Source: a virus (Duplodnaviria; Caudoviricetes). Taken from it: a DNA stretch of 64,000 nt. Under the pieces are notes generated by a model. The model made no database searches. It saw only the letters and a list, made by a program, of their open reading frames with translations, and was not told the DNA's origin. The stretch lies in the IMG/VR virus record IMGVR_UViG_3300010163_000001, positions 160,001 to 224,000 of that record. One strand, 5' to 3'. The position numbers and the translations under genes were made by a program. Of this stretch, positions 25,929 through 59,705 are shown in pieces (positions within the stretch are counted from its first letter, which is position 1; each line of letters begins with the position of its first letter).

Positions 25929-26666
25929 TCATTTGTTTTCTTCACTTTCGCATTTAGCACCTTCCGCCAGTAATGGTTCTATCTCAGAGATAATTTTCTT
26001 GTGTATTTCTGGTATAGGAAGTAAATTTTTCTTATCATCTTCACATGATATAATTATCATATCCATGATATCTGCAATCTTTAATCCAAACTTCCTTGTT
26101 TTCTTCAGAAATTTCTCATTTCTTTCATTTTTATCTAACTTATTTCGATTTTTAATTAGAGTATTTGCATTCTTATTACTCATATGCAAATAAATCTCTT
26201 TTGATGGATTTGGAAGATCAAATATTCCGTATTCTAAGCCGACAACCTGTTCTAAGAAATATAAACGGTTTTTCTTAGGTAATCTCCATCCATTACTAAT
26301 TACATTGGATGAAACATATCGATCCATAACGATCCAGATTCCTTGCTCAAGTTTTTCTTTTATATTTAACTTTCGAATTGTCACGAGTCTATCAAAAGCA
26401 AACAATGCTGATATCTCCAATGGTTCTAACTCTCCCATCTCATCATTTAGGTATTTTTCTACTGGAAGAGCTTGTGGCTCTCCGTAAGATGGGAATGAAA
26501 TTAACTCATTTTTAATACCATTAGCTGTCAAATACTCAGACAACATTTTTGATTGTTCTGCTTTTCCTACGCCGTCGCAACCTTCAATTACAATTAACTT
26601 TCCTTTCATTTTCTTTTCACATTTTTCTTTTAACTGATCATTGCACTTATTGCATTCACTAGACAT
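25929..26666 (-). CDS. tmk: thymidylate kinase family deoxynucleotide monophosphate kinase
   Basis: LIVIEGCDGVGKAEQ P-loop, ISFP, LFAFDR, VMDRYVSSN; start moved to ATG 26666 after GGAGG. Confidence 0.9.
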   Translation of the reverse strand: MSSECNKCNDQLKEKCEKKMKGKLIVIEGCDGVGKAEQSKMLSEYLTANGIKNELISFPSYGEPQALPVEKYLNDEMGELEPLEISALFAFDRLVTIRKLNIKEKLEQGIWIVMDRYVSSNVISNGWRLPKKNRLYFLEQVVGLEYGIFDLPNPSKEIYLHMSNKNANTLIKNRNKLDKNERNEKFLKKTRKFGLKIADIMDMIIISCEDDKKNLLPIPEIHKKIISEIEPLLAEGAKCESEENK

Positions 26667-26854
26667 AATCCTAAACCTCCGTATAGTAATATGTTGAATA
26701 AATATACGATCCAATCACTTGCATCACACATTATATCCTTTACTTTTTCTGTTATTTTATTATCCATACAAGTAAGTATGAGTATTAGAAGGAACAGGAT
26801 AATTCCTGCTCCCTCCCATAATTTGCTTATGATTTCCCAGATGTGTGAAATCAT
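26630..26854 (-). CDS. small membrane protein (2 TM)
   Basis: Two hydrophobic helices; GAGG SD. Confidence 0.6.
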   Translation of the reverse strand: MISHIWEIISKLWEGAGIILFLLILILTCMDNKITEKVKDIMCDASDWIVYLFNILLYGGLGLCLVNAISAMIS

Positions 26855-27135
26855 TTTTTGTCCTCTTCCTTCATCTTGCTGACTTCAGATTCAACTTCTG
26901 CAATTCCCTTAGAGATGTCATTTTCATCAGATTCACTCGATTTCTTTTTCTTCTTTTTCCCTTTCTTTTCAGACAGAATAATTGTCATATCCTTCTCAAT
27001 TTCTTCGACTTTGTAATCATCGTATTCCTCTGGAACCTTACTCATAGAATCATACTTTTTAGATGATTCTCCGACAACTCTGATGGATGGCGCTGTCTGA
27101 TCGTTCATTTTTTCTTTCAACTTTTTAAATTTCAT
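26851..27135 (-). CDS. charged hypothetical protein (94 aa)
   Basis: GGAGG SD; overlapping operon arrangement. Confidence 0.7.
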   Translation of the reverse strand: MKFKKLKEKMNDQTAPSIRVVGESSKKYDSMSKVPEEYDDYKVEEIEKDMTIILSEKKGKKKKKKSSESDENDISKGIAEVESEVSKMKEEDKK

Positions 27136-27463
27136 TTTTATTATCCTCCATATACATTTTTTTTATTATATCATCTGTAACTACGGGATTAACTTTTTCA
27201 TCATCTGTAATTTTTATTCCACAACACTCGTAAATAACTTTTCGCATAAGTTCACTTGTATGGAAATCTACATCAGTATCTGATTTGATGTAGATTTTTG
27301 ATACATCCATATTTAAAATAAATAATTTATATCCAGCTAAGACATTGTCCAATACATCTAATGCTTCTTTAGTTTTTCCGTCTATTATAAGTTTAGCGGC
27401 GTCATTTTCCATTTTTTGAAGAATACATAATGATCCTAACGTTCTTCCTTTATCTTCTCGCAT
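27125..27463 (-). CDS. hypothetical protein (112 aa)
   Basis: GAGGAGG SD. Confidence 0.7.
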   Translation of the reverse strand: MREDKGRTLGSLCILQKMENDAAKLIIDGKTKEALDVLDNVLAGYKLFILNMDVSKIYIKSDTDVDFHTSELMRKVIYECCGIKITDDEKVNPVVTDDIIKKMYMEDNKNEI

Positions 27464-28255: not shown

Positions 28256-29159
28256 GCTTTCTCCTCCTTCCTTTCTCTTTTACACTTATCTTCATGGATG
28301 GAACTTTTGGACATTCATCATATGGGATATTTAACGCGTCTGGAATAGAATGAATTGCATTTCGTATCATTCGTACACATTTGGAATAAACCAATTTTTT
28401 TGCATCCATGCGTTCTTCTTCTGGAAGATATTCAAATGTGGTCTTTAAGTTTACAATTGTAAACTCTTTCAAAAAAGTATCTTCTGACTTTCCATATTCC
28501 TTAATTCTTGAGTAATTGTAAAAGGATACACGAAAATTAATAATTGAAACCGCGGTTCTGTGTTTTTCTGTTACATATATATTGATCTTGCTGTCTAATC
28601 CATCATTTTCGACTATACCTTTAGTAAACATATCTGCAGATATATTGCAATGCTGATGTGTTACTTTCATACTAGAAATATGAGGTATTTTACATTTTAA
28701 TACTGCTGGATCATTATTTGTATTGGAATTAGATTGAACATTTCTCGTCTTTTTGATTTCTACCACTTTTGGCGGCTCCGGCTCATCCATATATGGAAAA
28801 ATAGTTTTCATTGTTTGTATACACTCTTTTTTATATGCTTCCCGCACTTCAAAATATGGAGGCACTATTTGCATTGCTTCGAACGGATTTGATTCCATTT
28901 GATCCATAATCGTTTCCATAAATTTCTTCTTATAGTCCTTCGACCAGTGATACCTCCAATGAACGTCATATGCATCTGCCAACTGATGATTAAATAACCC
29001 AATTACATTGGTTATTTTTGAGAATTGTTTGTCCTGCTCATAATTCTTAAATTCTTTATGTTTAATTGCATCTATTATGAAATCTCTTACTTTTGTTATT
29101 TCATTCATCATTTCGTTGATTACTTTATCATTTAAATCCGCTCCAATAATTTCAATCAT
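28245..29159 (-). CDS. hypothetical protein (304 aa)
   Basis: AAGGAG SD. Confidence 0.75.
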   Translation of the reverse strand: MIEIIGADLNDKVINEMMNEITKVRDFIIDAIKHKEFKNYEQDKQFSKITNVIGLFNHQLADAYDVHWRYHWSKDYKKKFMETIMDQMESNPFEAMQIVPPYFEVREAYKKECIQTMKTIFPYMDEPEPPKVVEIKKTRNVQSNSNTNNDPAVLKCKIPHISSMKVTHQHCNISADMFTKGIVENDGLDSKINIYVTEKHRTAVSIINFRVSFYNYSRIKEYGKSEDTFLKEFTIVNLKTTFEYLPEEERMDAKKLVYSKCVRMIRNAIHSIPDALNIPYDECPKVPSMKISVKEKGRRRKHFN

Positions 29160-29237
29160 GTTTATTTTTCTCCTTTTTAAATTAAATTAGAGAGGGATGA
29201 TGAGAATATCATCATCCCTCGTGTTTCTCTTCAGTTG

Positions 29238-29804
29238 CTATTTTCTAATCTTTTTTCTACGCTTCTTTTCTTTGTCATATTTCTTTTCTGCATCCTTTTC
29301 TAATTTATGAAGTCTCTCTGACAATACGTTTAACTCATCCTCTGATAAAGACTCTCTCAATGCTTTTTTACATTCCTTTGTGTCATCAAGAATATAAACA
29401 AATGGAATGTTTACGTTAAACATTGTTATGAATCTTCTGCGTAACCTTTTCTTATAGGTTTTGAATGCTTTGTTTCTGAGGACAATAAACATATTGATAT
29501 CCCGCTCACATAATCCAGATACCGTAGCAAGAATTGCATTTGTCATAGATACCCCGTTCAGATATCTGTCTTCCAAATCTTCGATTTTATCTAAATCGAT
29601 GATTTCGCTGGAATCAAATGCTTTGTCTGATGTTAATTTCAATAATCTTGCAGGCGGGCAAAACGCATCCATAGTTACAGTATTTGTGAATTTTGATAAT
29701 TTTGCGTCATCATCGTCGGTACCATCAAAAATTATATAATCCTTATACTGTACCAATTTCTTCTTGTTCTTTTCCCATTGCTTCATTGACATGATAAAAA
29801 TCAT
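29238..29804 (-). CDS. hypothetical protein (188 aa)
   Basis: AAGGAGG SD; ATGA overlap. Confidence 0.75.
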   Translation of the reverse strand: MIFIMSMKQWEKNKKKLVQYKDYIIFDGTDDDDAKLSKFTNTVTMDAFCPPARLLKLTSDKAFDSSEIIDLDKIEDLEDRYLNGVSMTNAILATVSGLCERDINMFIVLRNKAFKTYKKRLRRRFITMFNVNIPFVYILDDTKECKKALRESLSEDELNVLSERLHKLEKDAEKKYDKEKKRRKKIRK

Positions 29805-30508
29805 TTTTTATCAACCTCCTTAAAATATTTATTCTTTTCAATAATATATCCTTTATCAAATTCCTTTTTTGACTTTTCATAACCTAATGATTCACAATAT
29901 TCTTCTAGTTCTGTTACTGTATTTCCATACCCTATGATTTCCCAGTGATCATCATTTGAAAAAGTAGAACCCATAGGATCAGTATAATAATTTTCTGCTA
30001 CGTATGGAATCTTTTCTAGAAACATTGTTCTCAACTTTTCTACTCCGTTCAAATAACGTTTAATCTTTTCTGGTGAAAGTTGTTCTATCTTAAATCCAAT
30101 TTCTTCTTCCGGTGTATCTGGTTTCCATAATCTCGGATTACTTCCGGAATATTCCGGAAGGTCAGATAAACTGTTATCATCTATATTTAAAATAGACTCG
30201 TCTTCTTCCAGATGAAAGTATATAGGACCAGTATCTCCTAATATTGCTATCTTTGCATCTTGTGGCTGGTTGGTTAAATAAGTAACCAACTCATCCACTG
30301 TTAATCCAGGTGTATACCGCCATTCTTTCTTATTATACATTTTTGTATCTCCTTTCATTTTTAAAATAATTGACATTGCCTTATCACCGTCAAAATCTGC
30401 ATTTACAAGCGCTTTTGCACATTTTATAATATCCATTCCCGATGTATTATGGAGATTAATAATCATGCTCTTAATGTTGTCTAATTCTTCTTTTATTGAT
30501 AAACTCAT
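29801..30508 (-). CDS. protein with N-terminal EF-Ts UBA-like domain; internal start at 30340
   Basis: IINLHNTSGMDIIKCAKALVNADFDGDKAMSIIL resembles the EF-Ts N-terminus; AAAGGAG SD before internal ATG (MYNKKE). Confidence 0.6.
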   Translation of the reverse strand: MSLSIKEELDNIKSMIINLHNTSGMDIIKCAKALVNADFDGDKAMSIILKMKGDTKMYNKKEWRYTPGLTVDELVTYLTNQPQDAKIAILGDTGPIYFHLEEDESILNIDDNSLSDLPEYSGSNPRLWKPDTPEEEIGFKIEQLSPEKIKRYLNGVEKLRTMFLEKIPYVAENYYTDPMGSTFSNDDHWEIIGYGNTVTELEEYCESLGYEKSKKEFDKGYIIEKNKYFKEVDKK

Positions 30509-51033: not shown

Positions 51034-51888
51034 ATGAAACCAATAATTTTAACTGATCAGATGGCATTAGCCGACATGTTTTCCAGAGGAAAAGACATAT
51101 ATAAAAAAAATCAAGGAATGCCTGTAATGGCAGGGTTTTTATATGAAAAGATGGGTGATGATGGATTTGGAAATCCACTCCTCAAAAAAGTAGGAGAAAA
51201 TACAGTTGTAGTTGGGGGAGCTATTACATCATTGGAACATCTTTGCAATGTTGATGCAAATTGGAAACCTAAAACTTTGAATGAAATTATGAATATTAAC
51301 GCAAGTGAGACTGGAGATCTTGGTAAAGATTTTATTGCACTATTCGGAATTGGTATTGGTGGTTCAGGATTGCAGTTTGGCTCTGTGGCAGAAAAAGATA
51401 TTAAGCGTAGAGATGTCCCAGATATAATTCCTTTAAGAAGAAATACCATTATTACAGGTGATGACGCTAATAAATATTGGTTCAAGAAGGATAATGGAGA
51501 TGGTACATTTGATTGGTATCTTAAGGAGTTTGCTCAGGATATCATCATTAAGACATGGTGGAAAGATGGGGCAGATGATGAAGCTGATGGTACAGAAATC
51601 ACTGCAGAAATCCATGATTCTACAAGGACAGAAAAGATACAGTCGTTTGCCGAACTTGTTTTAGACTTTAATACAGATGATGTTCGGGAATATTATGAAT
51701 CAACCGGAAGTCTGGATTCAGCAAGATATAATTCCATTGGTATTTATACTGGACAAAAGAAAACTCTTGCAAATGGAGAAACTGATTATGTAAACGTCCG
51801 GCTGTTCTCATACTTAAATATTGATAACAAATCTGTAAAGATCAAAACAGCTTCTCAATATGTTTATAGGATATTATCACTTGTTTAA
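51034..51888 (+). CDS. putative baseplate/tail-fibre attachment structural protein
   Basis: ENTVVVGG, LFGIGIGG, IGIYTG, LFSYLN pattern; ATG 51034 after AAGGAGG; AACA-N6-TA at 50991. Confidence 0.55.
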   Translation: MKPIILTDQMALADMFSRGKDIYKKNQGMPVMAGFLYEKMGDDGFGNPLLKKVGENTVVVGGAITSLEHLCNVDANWKPKTLNEIMNINASETGDLGKDFIALFGIGIGGSGLQFGSVAEKDIKRRDVPDIIPLRRNTIITGDDANKYWFKKDNGDGTFDWYLKEFAQDIIIKTWWKDGADDEADGTEITAEIHDSTRTEKIQSFAELVLDFNTDDVREYYESTGSLDSARYNSIGIYTGQKKTLANGETDYVNVRLFSYLNIDNKSVKIKTASQYVYRILSLV

Positions 51889-51889
51889 A

Positions 51890-51926
51890 AAATAAGGTGT
51901 GAATCGAAATGATTCACACCTTATTT
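51890..51926. terminator. bidirectional terminator between the + gene and the end of pentamer array 1
   Basis: aaataaggtgtgaatc-gaaat-gattcacaccttattt. Confidence 0.75.
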
Positions 51927-51928
51927 AG

Positions 51929-52453
51929 TTTACGCTACATGATTAAGCAACGCATCACACATCCACTACAAATCCAAGCAAGCCATTTCCTTTACTCAAC
52001 CACACGCCACCATGCGTCGCCTTTCCGTAACACCACTTCACACAACCTCACCTTTCCTATACCTTACTAGACACATCAATTCATAACGATACATCTCCAT
52101 AGCATTACAATACTTTACCAGTCCAGTCTATTCCATTACTTAACCTATCTTGACACAGCTTTTCCGATGCATCATATTACAATACTTGGCTCTTCCATTA
52201 CTCCACGACTCAACACTTCACTTTTCCTTAACTAGACTAAGTTGTGTGCCGCCTAACGCTTTATAGTACATTACTAAAATTAACTACTCATAACCGTGAC
52301 TCTACCACTCCATTCTATGCATAGCAGATCCATTACATCACTAAACCCAACCTCACCATTCCATTACTTAACTCTACCATTCCACTCCTTTGCACCACTC
52401 AACTTTACATATCGTCGCTATACTGAACACTACCTTTACTTTACATTACTAAA
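51929..52453 (-). repeat. non-coding 5-nt-phased array 1 (GYNNN pentamers with GGAANN linkers on the minus strand)
   Basis: Plus strand e.g. tttac tcaac cacac gccac catgc gtcgc ctttcc gtaac accac ttcac acaac ctcac ctttcc; linker spacings 36,31,41,36,31,31,31. Confidence 0.85.
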
Positions 52454-52492: not shown

Positions 52493-52933
52493 TTACCAGT
52501 GTGTATCTCCATCATCGTCCATAAAATCAGATAATGATTTAGATCTTCTGGGTCTGTTATAATCTCCACCAGAAGAACTATAACTTCTCGTAGAAGATTT
52601 TTTAGAGCCAATTGCCCCGGGAATAATTACGTCCGTCTGTGATTCATAATCTCCATCATCACTAGAGCTTGATACTTGATTCCGGTACAGACTGTAATAT
52701 GCTTTGCGGGCATCTTCTCCAACTTCGGCAAACTCAAATGTAATATCGGTTGAGGTTTCTGTTAATAATAGCTGCTTGACCGTACCAATTCCAAGACACC
52801 CTTTTCCAGCATATATAACAGGAACAGGTACTTCGGGTTTGATATAAACTTCTCCTGATACTGTGAATGTCACGCGATTCCAATCATCTGGATGGATTTT
52901 CTCATTCACAACAATAAAGTTCATAAATTTCAT
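52493..52933 (-). CDS. hypothetical early protein upstream of array 1
   Basis: AAGGAGG SD; early motif at 52967-52980. Confidence 0.8.
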   Translation of the reverse strand: MKFMNFIVVNEKIHPDDWNRVTFTVSGEVYIKPEVPVPVIYAGKGCLGIGTVKQLLLTETSTDITFEFAEVGEDARKAYYSLYRNQVSSSSDDGDYESQTDVIIPGAIGSKKSSTRSYSSSGGDYNRPRRSKSLSDFMDDDGDTHW

Positions 52934-53031
52934 TTTTATTGTCCTCCTTTTTCTTTATATTCGCATAAAAATAATATATTGTCGTAATATCTGAGCACTA
53001 TATTGGTCATATATAGTGCTCAGATATGTTT

Positions 53032-54929: not shown

Positions 54930-55397
54930 ATAACCGTAGATTTTACTACTACTAAACATTACTCTACCAGACTTTACCATTCCTTTTCAATACTTTTCGG
55001 AACTATTCCAGCACAACACTTAACTTTTCGACACCATTCCCATACGTCACATTACTTATCAACGCTTTTCATTTCAATACAGTGAGAATATTTTACTAAA
55101 CTAGTCCAAAGCCAAAAACCTTTTCTCCACATTACTGAACCATTCCATCACCTGACAACGCTTTACTTCTCCAATACGAGCCAATTCCACTCTGCACCAT
55201 TCCAATACACATCCGCACTTTACCCTACCATGCACAACCTTTACAAAACTAAACAAAACATCACGACGCTTTTCGTATCCATTACATTTCAACACGTTTC
55301 CTTGCTATTGCATCACATAACAATTCAGATCAGCACCTCACCATTCCATTACTTAACTCTACCATTCCACTCCTTTACATCACTAAACTTAACACTT
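54930..55397 (-). repeat. non-coding 5-nt-phased array 2
   Basis: attac tctac cagac tttac cattcc ttttc aatac ttttc ggaac tattcc agcac aacac ttaac ttttc gacac cattcc; shares 42 bp with array 1. Confidence 0.85.
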
Positions 55398-58409: not shown

Positions 58410-59705
58410 TTACATATCATCTACGAAATCCTCTGAAGGAACGCCGCCATTATTCTTGTTTTCTTCAGATTCTTCCCATTCTCTCTTTGGACAGTATTCT
58501 TGTACAAGTTCCTTCCCAGTATCTAAATATTTCATATCTGGATTTATTTCAAAGAATTCCGAATACTTCCTTAAGAAAGTGGGATGACAACTTCCTCTTT
58601 TAATCTTACGAAGCCATTCTTCATAAGATCTTGTATAGTAATGATTTAACTGCATGAATTCTGTTGTAATTTCCGGATGATCATCGTAATCTGCGGTTTC
58701 AGCATCTAATCGAACTAATGGTGTATAACTTGTAAACCCGCGAATACGATTTGTCTGAGCAAATGTTTTTCCACCGTGTTTTTCATCATACCAAGTAGTT
58801 TCCTTTGGAAAACGAATCATATCAGGTTCTGCTGTTTGTGTTTCTTGTCCATTTGCAGTATAATGTTTCCATTGACATTTGATTTTTGCATATTGTGTGT
58901 TTTCCTTAAGGAAATCAATTAAAGATTTTGAATCATCTTTTAATTTGATATATTCATCCGGATCCATACCAATGAACCATTTTGTTTCATTTTTATAGTT
59001 ATTTAAGAAATCTGTATGTGCATCTTGCTGTGAAAATCTTGTTGTTGGAAATCTCTTGATGGTACAATGATCAAGATACTTAAAATTAACGCTTTCCAAG
59101 TATTCTTGCGCTGGAATTTCTGATTCGTTATCATAGAGATAGAAATGATCAACTCCCATCTCTTCAATATGATATCGAATCCACTCTTCCAAATAATCAT
59201 TTTCATCTCGAATAATTGCAATTACAGATAAAAAGTATTTGTAATCTATTTTTGCCTCTTCACTTTCAAAAAGTCGAAGTTTACCAGCAACTTCCTCTTT
59301 CTTTAATTCTGCAGTCAATTCGTCTCTTTGTTTTTCCAAAGTGGCTAATTTTTCACGATTATTCTTCGCAATGTTTTTTGCTTCTTCCATACTCATTCCA
59401 TTAATGATGTTATCCATAAATGTTTTGTATTCATTTTCACCGGATGCCTGTTTACTAATTTCGTTTATTTCGCTCATAACATTATGCAAACTAATAGATG
59501 CTTCACTCTCTTGTGGAATTTCGTCATCCTTTAATTCAGTTACTTTTCCATCAATATAGAATAAATTATTATTTATTCCGGATGATAACACCTTTTTCTC
59601 TTCATCACCTTCTACAAAAATAGAATCTGAATTGGAAGTATTATGAATAATCGTATTATATCCCACAATTTTCATATTTTTGTAATCAACATATATTTCG
59701 ATCAT
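58410..59705 (-). CDS. glycosyltransferase (GT-A, GT92/GT2-like) with N-terminal coiled-coil extension
   Basis: LSVIAIIRDENDYLEEWIRYH..MGVDHFYLYDNES, WFIGMDPDEY, QLNHYYTRSYEEW..K..RG. Confidence 0.85.
   Translation of the reverse strand: MIEIYVDYKNMKIVGYNTIIHNTSNSDSIFVEGDEEKKVLSSGINNNLFYIDGKVTELKDDEIPQESEASISLHNVMSEINEISKQASGENEYKTFMDNIINGMSMEEAKNIAKNNREKLATLEKQRDELTAELKKEEVAGKLRLFESEEAKIDYKYFLSVIAIIRDENDYLEEWIRYHIEEMGVDHFYLYDNESEIPAQEYLESVNFKYLDHCTIKRFPTTRFSQQDAHTDFLNNYKNETKWFIGMDPDEYIKLKDDSKSLIDFLKENTQYAKIKCQWKHYTANGQETQTAEPDMIRFPKETTWYDEKHGGKTFAQTNRIRGFTSYTPLVRLDAETADYDDHPEITTEFMQLNHYYTRSYEEWLRKIKRGSCHPTFLRKYSEFFEINPDMKYLDTGKELVQEYCPKREWEESEENKNNGGVPSEDFVDDM

What the first reader, a model, noticed from the sequence alone, without database searches (positions are those of the whole stretch)
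51929..52453. Non-coding pentamer-phased array 1: fixed scaffold with variable bases, candidate programmable RNA
Seen: ~525 bp, C/A-rich on plus, with C at nearly every fifth base, usually preceded by A or G, and the other three bases variable (tttac tcaac cacac gccac catgc gtcgc). Runs of pentamers are punctuated by 6-nt NN(T/C)TCC linkers ending at 51990, 52026, 52057, 52098, 52134, 52165, 52196 and 52227, so spacings are 36,31,41,36,31,31,31 = 6+5n. The minus strand reads GGAANN-(GYNNN)n. There is no minus-strand ORF of 60 aa or more, and a period of 5 does not fit codon structure. The units are not copies of each other, so this is neither a satellite nor a CRISPR. Inference: an RNA on which a protein polymerises every 5 nt, with the variable positions carrying information. 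From memory (unverified) this resembles the recently described phage VIPR RNAs with alternating GGY/NN motifs, but here the first G is not conserved and regular hexamer punctuation is added, which suggests a divergent or distinct system.
Basis: partly seen in the sequence, partly recalled or inferred. Interest (0 to 1): 0.88.

Follow-up and report, generated by a model that had tools for sequence, protein, structure and literature searches.

The report
Phage VIPR guide array, three-base variant
The G-every-fifth-base tract is real and is very probably one of six scattered guide-RNA arrays of a VIPR system (a CRISPR-related, RNA-guided DNA-silencing device of phages first described in 2026) in an uncultured 255-kb jumbo phage, and its relatives' guides appear to carry three target bases per step instead of the published two, which is suggestive but unproven.

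Summary
Confirmed. On the minus strand, 51929-52449 is 101 G-H-N-N-N units (G in 95 of 101). The 'hexamer linkers' are one extra G every 5-8 units. The tract sits in the 3' UTR of a 146-aa gene and ends at a terminator-like hairpin. The phage (AR9/PBS1-like) has six such arrays and one lone Cas7-fold gene 182 kb away (Z 12.3 to Csm3). In 173 of 178 loci with a homologue of that protein, an array of this grammar lies within 1 kb. Two related phages carry shorter, different arrays at the same site. This fits VIPR, whose paper already lists YNNNG repeats and 'staggered' arrays, so it is not a new system. Unpublished points: the arrays are scattered far from the protein gene, and the three free bases seem to copy the target without gaps. 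In homologues, decoded segments contain Shine-Dalgarno motifs 14 versus 5 times in shuffles. Two segments of this array match a phage thyX motif (17/17) and an rpsR ribosome-binding site (24/27); each is only suggestive. Most target searches were negative. Transcription is untested. The scan found this before, in other arrays of this genome and in other phages.

The parts
51929..52449 (-). Array 1: 101 G-H-N-N-N units in about 15 segments of 4-10 units, offset from one another by one extra G; inferred precursor of staggered guide RNAs. Its inferred protein partner lies outside the window (genome G000 29111-29947, minus strand: lone RAMP/Cas7-fold gene)
   Evidence: protein:
51890..51926 (-). 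Perfect 16-bp hairpin followed by a U tract, directly 3' of the array; likely terminator, possibly shared with the convergent plus-strand gene ending at 51888
   Evidence: Sequence; in both MFE and centroid folds; not flagged by the consensus scan; all six arrays end in such hairpins
52493..52933 (-). 146-aa gene of unknown function; the array starts about 45 nt after its stop codon, so it lies in this gene's 3' UTR
   Evidence: no family; syntenic in relatives L252 and L253
52969..52978 (-). TATATTATTT motif, resembling the AR9 early promoter; also upstream of the RAMP gene and of three other array-bearing genes
   Evidence: AR9 early consensus from PMC5312081; function inferred
51991..52026 (-). 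Segment whose free bases, read without gaps, match 17 of 17 nt of a gut-phage thyX gene at the GHGRV motif (first base and last unit do not match)
   Evidence: suggestive only
52389..52434 (-). Segment whose free bases match 24 of 27 nt over the ribosome-binding site of rpsR (S18) of a Lachnospira genome
   Evidence: suggestive only
52350..52391 (-). 42-nt block shared exactly with array 2 (55335-55376)
54948..55393 (-). Array 2: 86 units, same grammar, own terminator; the site is empty in both close relatives

Best explanation
The tract is a VIPR guide-RNA array of the staggered, YNNNG-type kind. SHOWN: the grammar, six arrays on one strand each behind a gene and before a hairpin, a Cas7-fold protein in the same genome, and tight linkage of that protein family to this grammar elsewhere. 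INFERRED: (1) the array is transcribed early as the 3' UTR of the 146-aa gene from an AR9-like early promoter; (2) the RAMP protein, made in trans, polymerises one subunit per five bases, gripping the fixed G and the non-G base; (3) each extra G breaks the register and marks the border between guides of 5-8 units, which are gained, lost and swapped as blocks; (4) each guide binds double-stranded DNA, advancing three target bases per unit as in SUSP1, and blocks transcription of genes of the host or of competing gut phages, often at ribosome-binding and start regions. The three free bases probably copy three consecutive target bases (about 55%). Whether the third one pairs or is a leftover of how guides are written, opposite the skipped base, cannot be told here.
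For: Fold: AF2 pLDDT 82; Foldseek top hits are type VII Cas7 and Csm3, E 1.4e-6; Z 12.3, rmsd 4.6, 156 aligned to Csm3 among 48,161 chains. Linkage: 173 of 178 homologue loci have a same-grammar array within 1 kb, almost all on the gene's strand. Residue logic: SUSP1 D177, which reads G1, is Q in 74 of 76 family members; W178 is kept in all 76; R179 is mostly H, matching loss of the first G and a relaxed pyrimidine. Conservation with turnover: 21-22 units with other content at the same site in two relatives; whole segments replaced at the extra G among close phages. Co-regulation: motif upstream of the RAMP gene and 4 of 6 array-bearing genes, against 14 of 223 ORFs. Gapless content: Shine-Dalgarno 7-mers in 14 of 1377 dereplicated segments vs 5.1 +/- 1.9, SD plus ATG 7 vs 1.4, antisense 1 vs 0.6; junction statistics z 3.2 forward, -0.5 reversed; the third base of middle units varies no more than the other two (0.074 vs 0.066 and 0.079) while that of the last unit varies 0.173.
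Against: The RAMP gene is 182 kb from this array and 23 kb from the nearest one. Sequence kinship to SUSP1 Vipr is weak (hmmsearch E 0.001 in a 120-sequence set; hhalign probability 4.5%). No code was enriched in the own genome, in 2.9 Mb of VIPR-bearing phage DNA, among jumbo relatives, or at peptide level. Against 2.2 Mb of Lachnospiraceae DNA this phage's segments gave 5 vs 1.7 +/- 1.0 but 1457 homologue segments gave 39 vs 45. The SD patterns and the 16S match were tested after being seen. Segments of 5-8 units are shorter than the published 9-16.
Confidence: 0.86

Rival explanations
1. Same system, but the published code holds strictly: only the first two free bases pair, the third is a degenerate G1 with no relation to the target, and the SD, thyX, rpsR and 16S matches are chance.
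For: The structural register (X-G-H-N-N) fits SUSP1 and the G1-reading residues are lost; TGH/NN and YNNNG are already read this way; most gapless searches were empty.
Against: SD enrichment needs the third base to match and is sense-only; SD-like hits with the third base mismatched are not enriched (9 vs 7.6); the third base of middle units is not more variable than the other two; no 2+1 enrichment in any pooled search (one minor excess, 11 vs 4.4, vanished in the larger set).
Confidence: 0.35
2. Segments are not separate guides. The whole array is one long filament scaffold, or a decoy that titrates Vipr proteins of rival phages; the extra G only relieves the helix about once per turn.
For: The modal segment of 6 units equals the six-subunit turn of the SUSP1 binary filament; 10-14 paired bases is low specificity; solo decoy vrRNAs are described.
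Against: The phage encodes its own RAMP under the same promoter motif; segments are swapped as blocks; the units flanking the extra G are semi-conserved like a handle; no cross-boundary target register was found.
Confidence: 0.08
3. A degenerate satellite or 3' UTR feature with no RNA-guided role.
For: AT-rich phage, arrays lie between stop codon and terminator, no expression data.
Against: Units are not copies of each other; the same grammar is tied to one protein family in 173 of 178 loci; all six arrays are on one strand.
Confidence: 0.03

Closest known systems
VIPR systems with staggered vrRNA arrays and alternative repeats YNNNG / NNNNG (bioRxiv 10.64898/2026.04.26.720920, methods and legend of fig. 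S18)
   Same: Lone RAMP, phage-borne, five-base repeats with one fixed G, successive guides offset by 1 nt with no spacer or tail between them.
   Different: Here six arrays lie in 3' UTRs 23-207 kb from the protein gene; no accessory gene was identified. In the text I read, the paper predicts targets for types II, III and V, not explicitly for staggered arrays. The figure itself could not be seen, so identity with that type is inferred from its legend.
Type II VIPR of Escherichia phage SUSP1 (10.64898/2026.04.26.720920; structures 10.64898/2026.04.26.720927; biology 10.64898/2026.10.15.759431)
   Same: RAMP fold with thumb and G-loop, conserved G-loop tryptophan, 5-nt unit, probably three target bases per subunit, no nuclease in sight.
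   Different: GGY scaffold reduced to G-H; D177 to Q and R179 mostly to H; 5-8 units per segment instead of 9-16; no conserved pseudoknot tail; no vap1 identified next to the gene; signs that all three free bases copy the target.
Non-canonical VIPR-like clusters (TGH/NN, WGT/NN, GAC/NN; bioRxiv 10.64898/2026.10.21.760802)
   Same: Five-base arrays degenerate at the first scaffold position, next to Vipr-like folds.
   Different: Modelled as three constrained plus two free bases; in the passages read, no targets, punctuation or dispersed arrays are described.
Class 1 CRISPR arrays with Cas7 backbones
   Same: Cas7/Csm3-like fold; 26-41-nt segments inherited as blocks, bordered by a semi-conserved handle.
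   Different: No identical direct repeats, no Cas1 found, information interleaved with scaffold every five bases.

Membership tests
VIPR | Stand-alone RAMP with RRM core, thumb and glycine-rich loop | tested here: met
   Genome 29111-29947
VIPR | Phage-borne and outside a CRISPR-cas context | tested here: met
   Complete virus record; no Cas1 found; neighbouring ORFs include an AAA ATPase; CRISPR arrays were not searched for with a dedicated tool
VIPR | Five-base tandem repeats, GGY/NN or a related consensus (YNNNG, NNNNG) | tested here: met
   G-H-N-N-N equals YNNNG/NNNNG in the paper's register; canonical GGY itself is not met
VIPR | Guide array flanks the vipr gene | tested here: not met
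   Nearest array 23 kb away, this one 182 kb; met in 173 of 178 homologue loci, so the separation is peculiar to this phage lineage (also L019, L259)
VIPR | Protein falls in the Vipr clade of the RAMP tree | tested here: inconclusive
   Only weak sequence kinship to SUSP1 Vipr; no tree with the published set; no Vipr structure among the fold hits
VIPR | Two bases read, one target base skipped | tested here: inconclusive
   No robust 2+1 enrichment; a three-base step is compatible with all leads; gapless content suggested
VIPR | RNA is expressed, processed and co-purifies with the protein | not testable with these tools
VIPR | Accessory vap gene | not tested
   Neighbours were listed but not folded
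VIPR, staggered arrays | Successive guides offset by 1 nt, the end of one being the start of the next | tested here: met
   One extra G every 5-8 units; matched to the legend only
VIPR type II (SUSP1) | 9-16 YNNGG repeats followed by an invariant structured 3' tail | tested here: not met
   Segments of 5-8 units, no tail between them
CRISPR array | Identical direct repeats separated by unique spacers | tested here: not met
   Only one repeated block of 18 nt or more involves this array; borders are a loose handle

The most novel reading that the evidence does not exclude
This large gut Vipr subfamily (1751 database relatives) uses a gapless code: two scaffold bases and three paired bases per subunit, in short staggered guides. 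This jumbo phage seeds such arrays into the 3' UTRs of early genes and aims them at ribosome-binding sites and core genes of its host (rpsR, 16S rRNA) and at thyX of competing phages. That would be a step between the VIPR 2+1 code and CRISPR's 5+1, and would show that guides are written by copying a target with two bases inserted after every three.
Probability: 0.35. Interest if true: 0.78.

Novelty: new variant of a known kind. Interest (0 to 1): 0.52.

Why it matters
The kind of system is published, and so are degenerate pentamers and staggered arrays, so the array alone is another example. Two things would matter. First, if the three free bases are a gapless copy of the target, either the code differs from the published one or the guides keep a trace of how they are made; how VIPR acquires guides is not addressed in the parts of the papers I read, and this makes it testable. 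Second, the arrays here spread to new sites: array 2 is absent in both close relatives and shares a 42-nt block with array 1, which gives a natural record of array birth and turnover.

Tried and rejected
Self-targeting in the own genome, 10-13 codes: none. Pooled search of 1763 segments against 2.9 Mb of homologue loci, 12 codes, within and across the extra G, offsets -6 to +12: no robust enrichment; an apparent +3 offset signal (18 vs 6) came from related copies and vanished with scoring. Own-locus targeting in homologues: none. Cross-targeting among jumbo relatives: none. Peptide-level matches: none. An rpoB 7-unit gapped match was antisense, in one genome only, and not wobble-aligned: chance. 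Collection scans for single decoded segments gave chance hits or nothing; the exact rpsR-type guide sequence was not found in GTDB or JGI metagenomes. Stop-codon depletion and codon-position tests were uninformative. A search of the genome with SUSP1 Vipr found nothing; the protein came from a G-loop motif scan. Pfam, NCBIfam and PHROGs do not name it. No Rfam match, no tRNA, no notable RNA fold beyond the terminator (z -2.0). A BLAST of all decoded segments joined together was left out because that sequence has no reference. Two scripts timed out without output and one before its positive control ran, so the z of 3.2 has no calibration.

Full report
Observation. The window is bases 160001-224000 of a 254,592-bp virus record with 115-bp inverted terminal repeats. 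A virion protein of the window matches PBS1, AR9 and Fusobacterium jumbo phages at about 24%, and the genome has two RNA polymerase beta-like genes. The period-5 signal is real: C-C autocorrelation is 1.97x at lag 5 and again at lag 31, and a phase score of 75.5 compares with at most 13 in 1000 shuffles. On the minus strand the tract parses into 101 units G-H-a-b-c, with G in 95 and a non-G second base in 99. Each linker is one extra G before an ordinary unit. No coding explanation was found and there is no Rfam match.

Anatomy. The array begins about 45 nt after the stop of a 146-aa minus-strand gene and ends at a 16-bp hairpin with a U tract. The genome holds six such arrays, at 53.2, 78.0, 123.2, 211.9, 214.9 and 236.8 kb, all on the minus strand, each behind a gene and before a hairpin. 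The motif TATATTATTT lies upstream of four of the six carrier genes and of the RAMP gene, against 14 of 223 ORFs overall. It resembles the AR9 early promoter (PMC5312081). Early co-expression is an inference from this.

The protein. A search with SUSP1 Vipr found nothing, but a glycine-loop motif scan picked one ORF outside the window, genome 29111-29947. Its model (pLDDT 82) matches Cas7 and Csm3 (Foldseek E 1.4e-6; Z 12.3, rmsd 4.6 over 156 residues). It has 1751 database relatives. Of 178 loci with a homologue, from gut phages and prophages binned mostly with Clostridia, 173 have an array of the same grammar within 1 kb, and most segments are 5-7 units long, with a mode of 6. This linkage is the main reason to pair the protein with the arrays, although here they are 23-207 kb apart. 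The residues fit: SUSP1 D177 and H17 read the first G, W178 holds the second, and R179 helps exclude purines at the third place. In this family the D177 place is Q (74 of 76), W is invariant, and the R179 place is mostly H. No Cas1 was found.

Evolution. The two closest relatives with the same gene order carry 21-22 units of different content at the site of array 1, each before its own hairpin, and nothing at the site of array 2. Arrays 1 and 2 share an exact 42-nt block, so array 2 was probably seeded from array 1 or exchanged sequence with it. Among close temperate phages whole segments are replaced at the extra G. The units on either side of the extra G are semi-conserved. Segments therefore behave as heritable blocks.

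The code. Searches for targets were mostly negative: own genome, 2.9 Mb of homologue loci, jumbo relatives, peptide level. These sets are small and may hold no true targets. Several weaker lines point to the three free bases being consecutive target bases. (a) Joined without gaps, homologue segments contain Shine-Dalgarno 7-mers 14 times against 5.1 +/- 1.9, and such a motif followed by ATG 7 times against 1.4, in the sense direction only; none of 300 shuffles reached either count (with harsher dereplication gave 8 vs 2.4). The patterns were chosen after examples had been seen. (b) Junction statistics favour a three-base gapless step (z 3.2 forward, -0.5 reversed; best of about 20 settings, uncalibrated). 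(c) The third base of middle units is not more variable than the other two, while that of the last unit is. (d) In this array, the segment at 52026 matches 17 of 17 nt of a gut-phage thyX at its GHGRV motif in three related contigs, and 16 of 17 at the same site in a Lachnospiraceae genome. Other 17-mers gave 0-7 chance hits in the same collection, so the match count alone is not significant. No thyX was found in the phage itself. (e) The segment at 52434 matches 24 of 27 nt over the rpsR ribosome-binding site of a Lachnospira genome; at the 21-nt search stage there were 4 hits against 2 for the control. (f) A segment of the 123-kb array matches the 5' end of 16S rRNA, antisense, at 16 of 18 (0 of 300 shuffles, but seen by eye first). 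Against 2.2 Mb of Lachnospiraceae DNA this phage's segments gave 5 strong hits against 1.7, while the homologues showed no excess. I put gapless copying at about 55%. Whether the third base pairs is open, since in SUSP1 that place faces the skipped base.

Mechanism. Most likely the array is transcribed early with the upstream gene, coated by the RAMP one subunit per unit, and cut or trimmed at the extra G into guides of about 26-41 nt. These bind double-stranded DNA and block transcription, as shown for SUSP1. Because the decoded ribosome-binding motifs are in mRNA sense, the partner would be the DNA template strand rather than the mRNA.

Comparison. It works like VIPR and meets the protein, context and repeat criteria, with YNNNG/NNNNG repeats and staggered arrays already named in 10.64898/2026.04.26.720920 and TGH/NN-type repeats in 10.64898/2026.10.21.760802. 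It fails the adjacency feature and the type II tail and length. Clade placement and the skip rule are inconclusive. Literature searches found no paper on dispersed arrays or a three-base code. Earlier notes of this scan reached the VIPR reading for three other arrays of this genome and proposed three-base reading in other phages. These are unchecked AI notes; one of them prompted my host-gene tests.

Verdict. Real; very probably a VIPR guide array; a variant of a known kind. Interest 0.52, resting on the dispersed arrays and the unproven three-base reading.

Noticed in passing
G006:C1:53075-57341 (L167): A related 243-kb jumbo phage has a single 4.27-kb array of 831 units beside its RAMP gene; some slips use T instead of the extra G.
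   Followed up: partly
L024:14473-14700: A prophage with the G-H-N-N-N array next to its RAMP gene also has a GG-rich, canonical-looking pentamer array 3.9 kb away; possibly an orphan guide set for another Vipr.
   Followed up: no
genome G000 1-115 and 254478-254592: The record's ends are exact 115-bp inverted repeats.
   Followed up: no
genome G000 123889-125136: The longest array (126 units) follows a tubulin/FtsZ-family gene.
   Followed up: partly
homologue arrays, L007-L183: The second (H) base of neighbouring units is strongly non-random: C followed by C is avoided (z -4.9, chi 90), unexplained. The first free base is poor in C (about 10%), and the mismatches of the 16S and thyX leads fall there, opposite a C.
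   Followed up: partly
window 52987-53027: 17-bp hairpin between the 346-aa and 146-aa genes, directly upstream of the early-promoter-like motif; similar hairpins at the same place in both relatives.
   Followed up: no
genome G000 26156-27376; L019, L259: An AAA ATPase gene lies downstream of the RAMP gene in this phage and in two related jumbo phages; a possible accessory, not tested.
   Followed up: no
window 58410-59705: Glycosyltransferase family 2/92 gene among tail-fibre-like genes.
   Followed up: no
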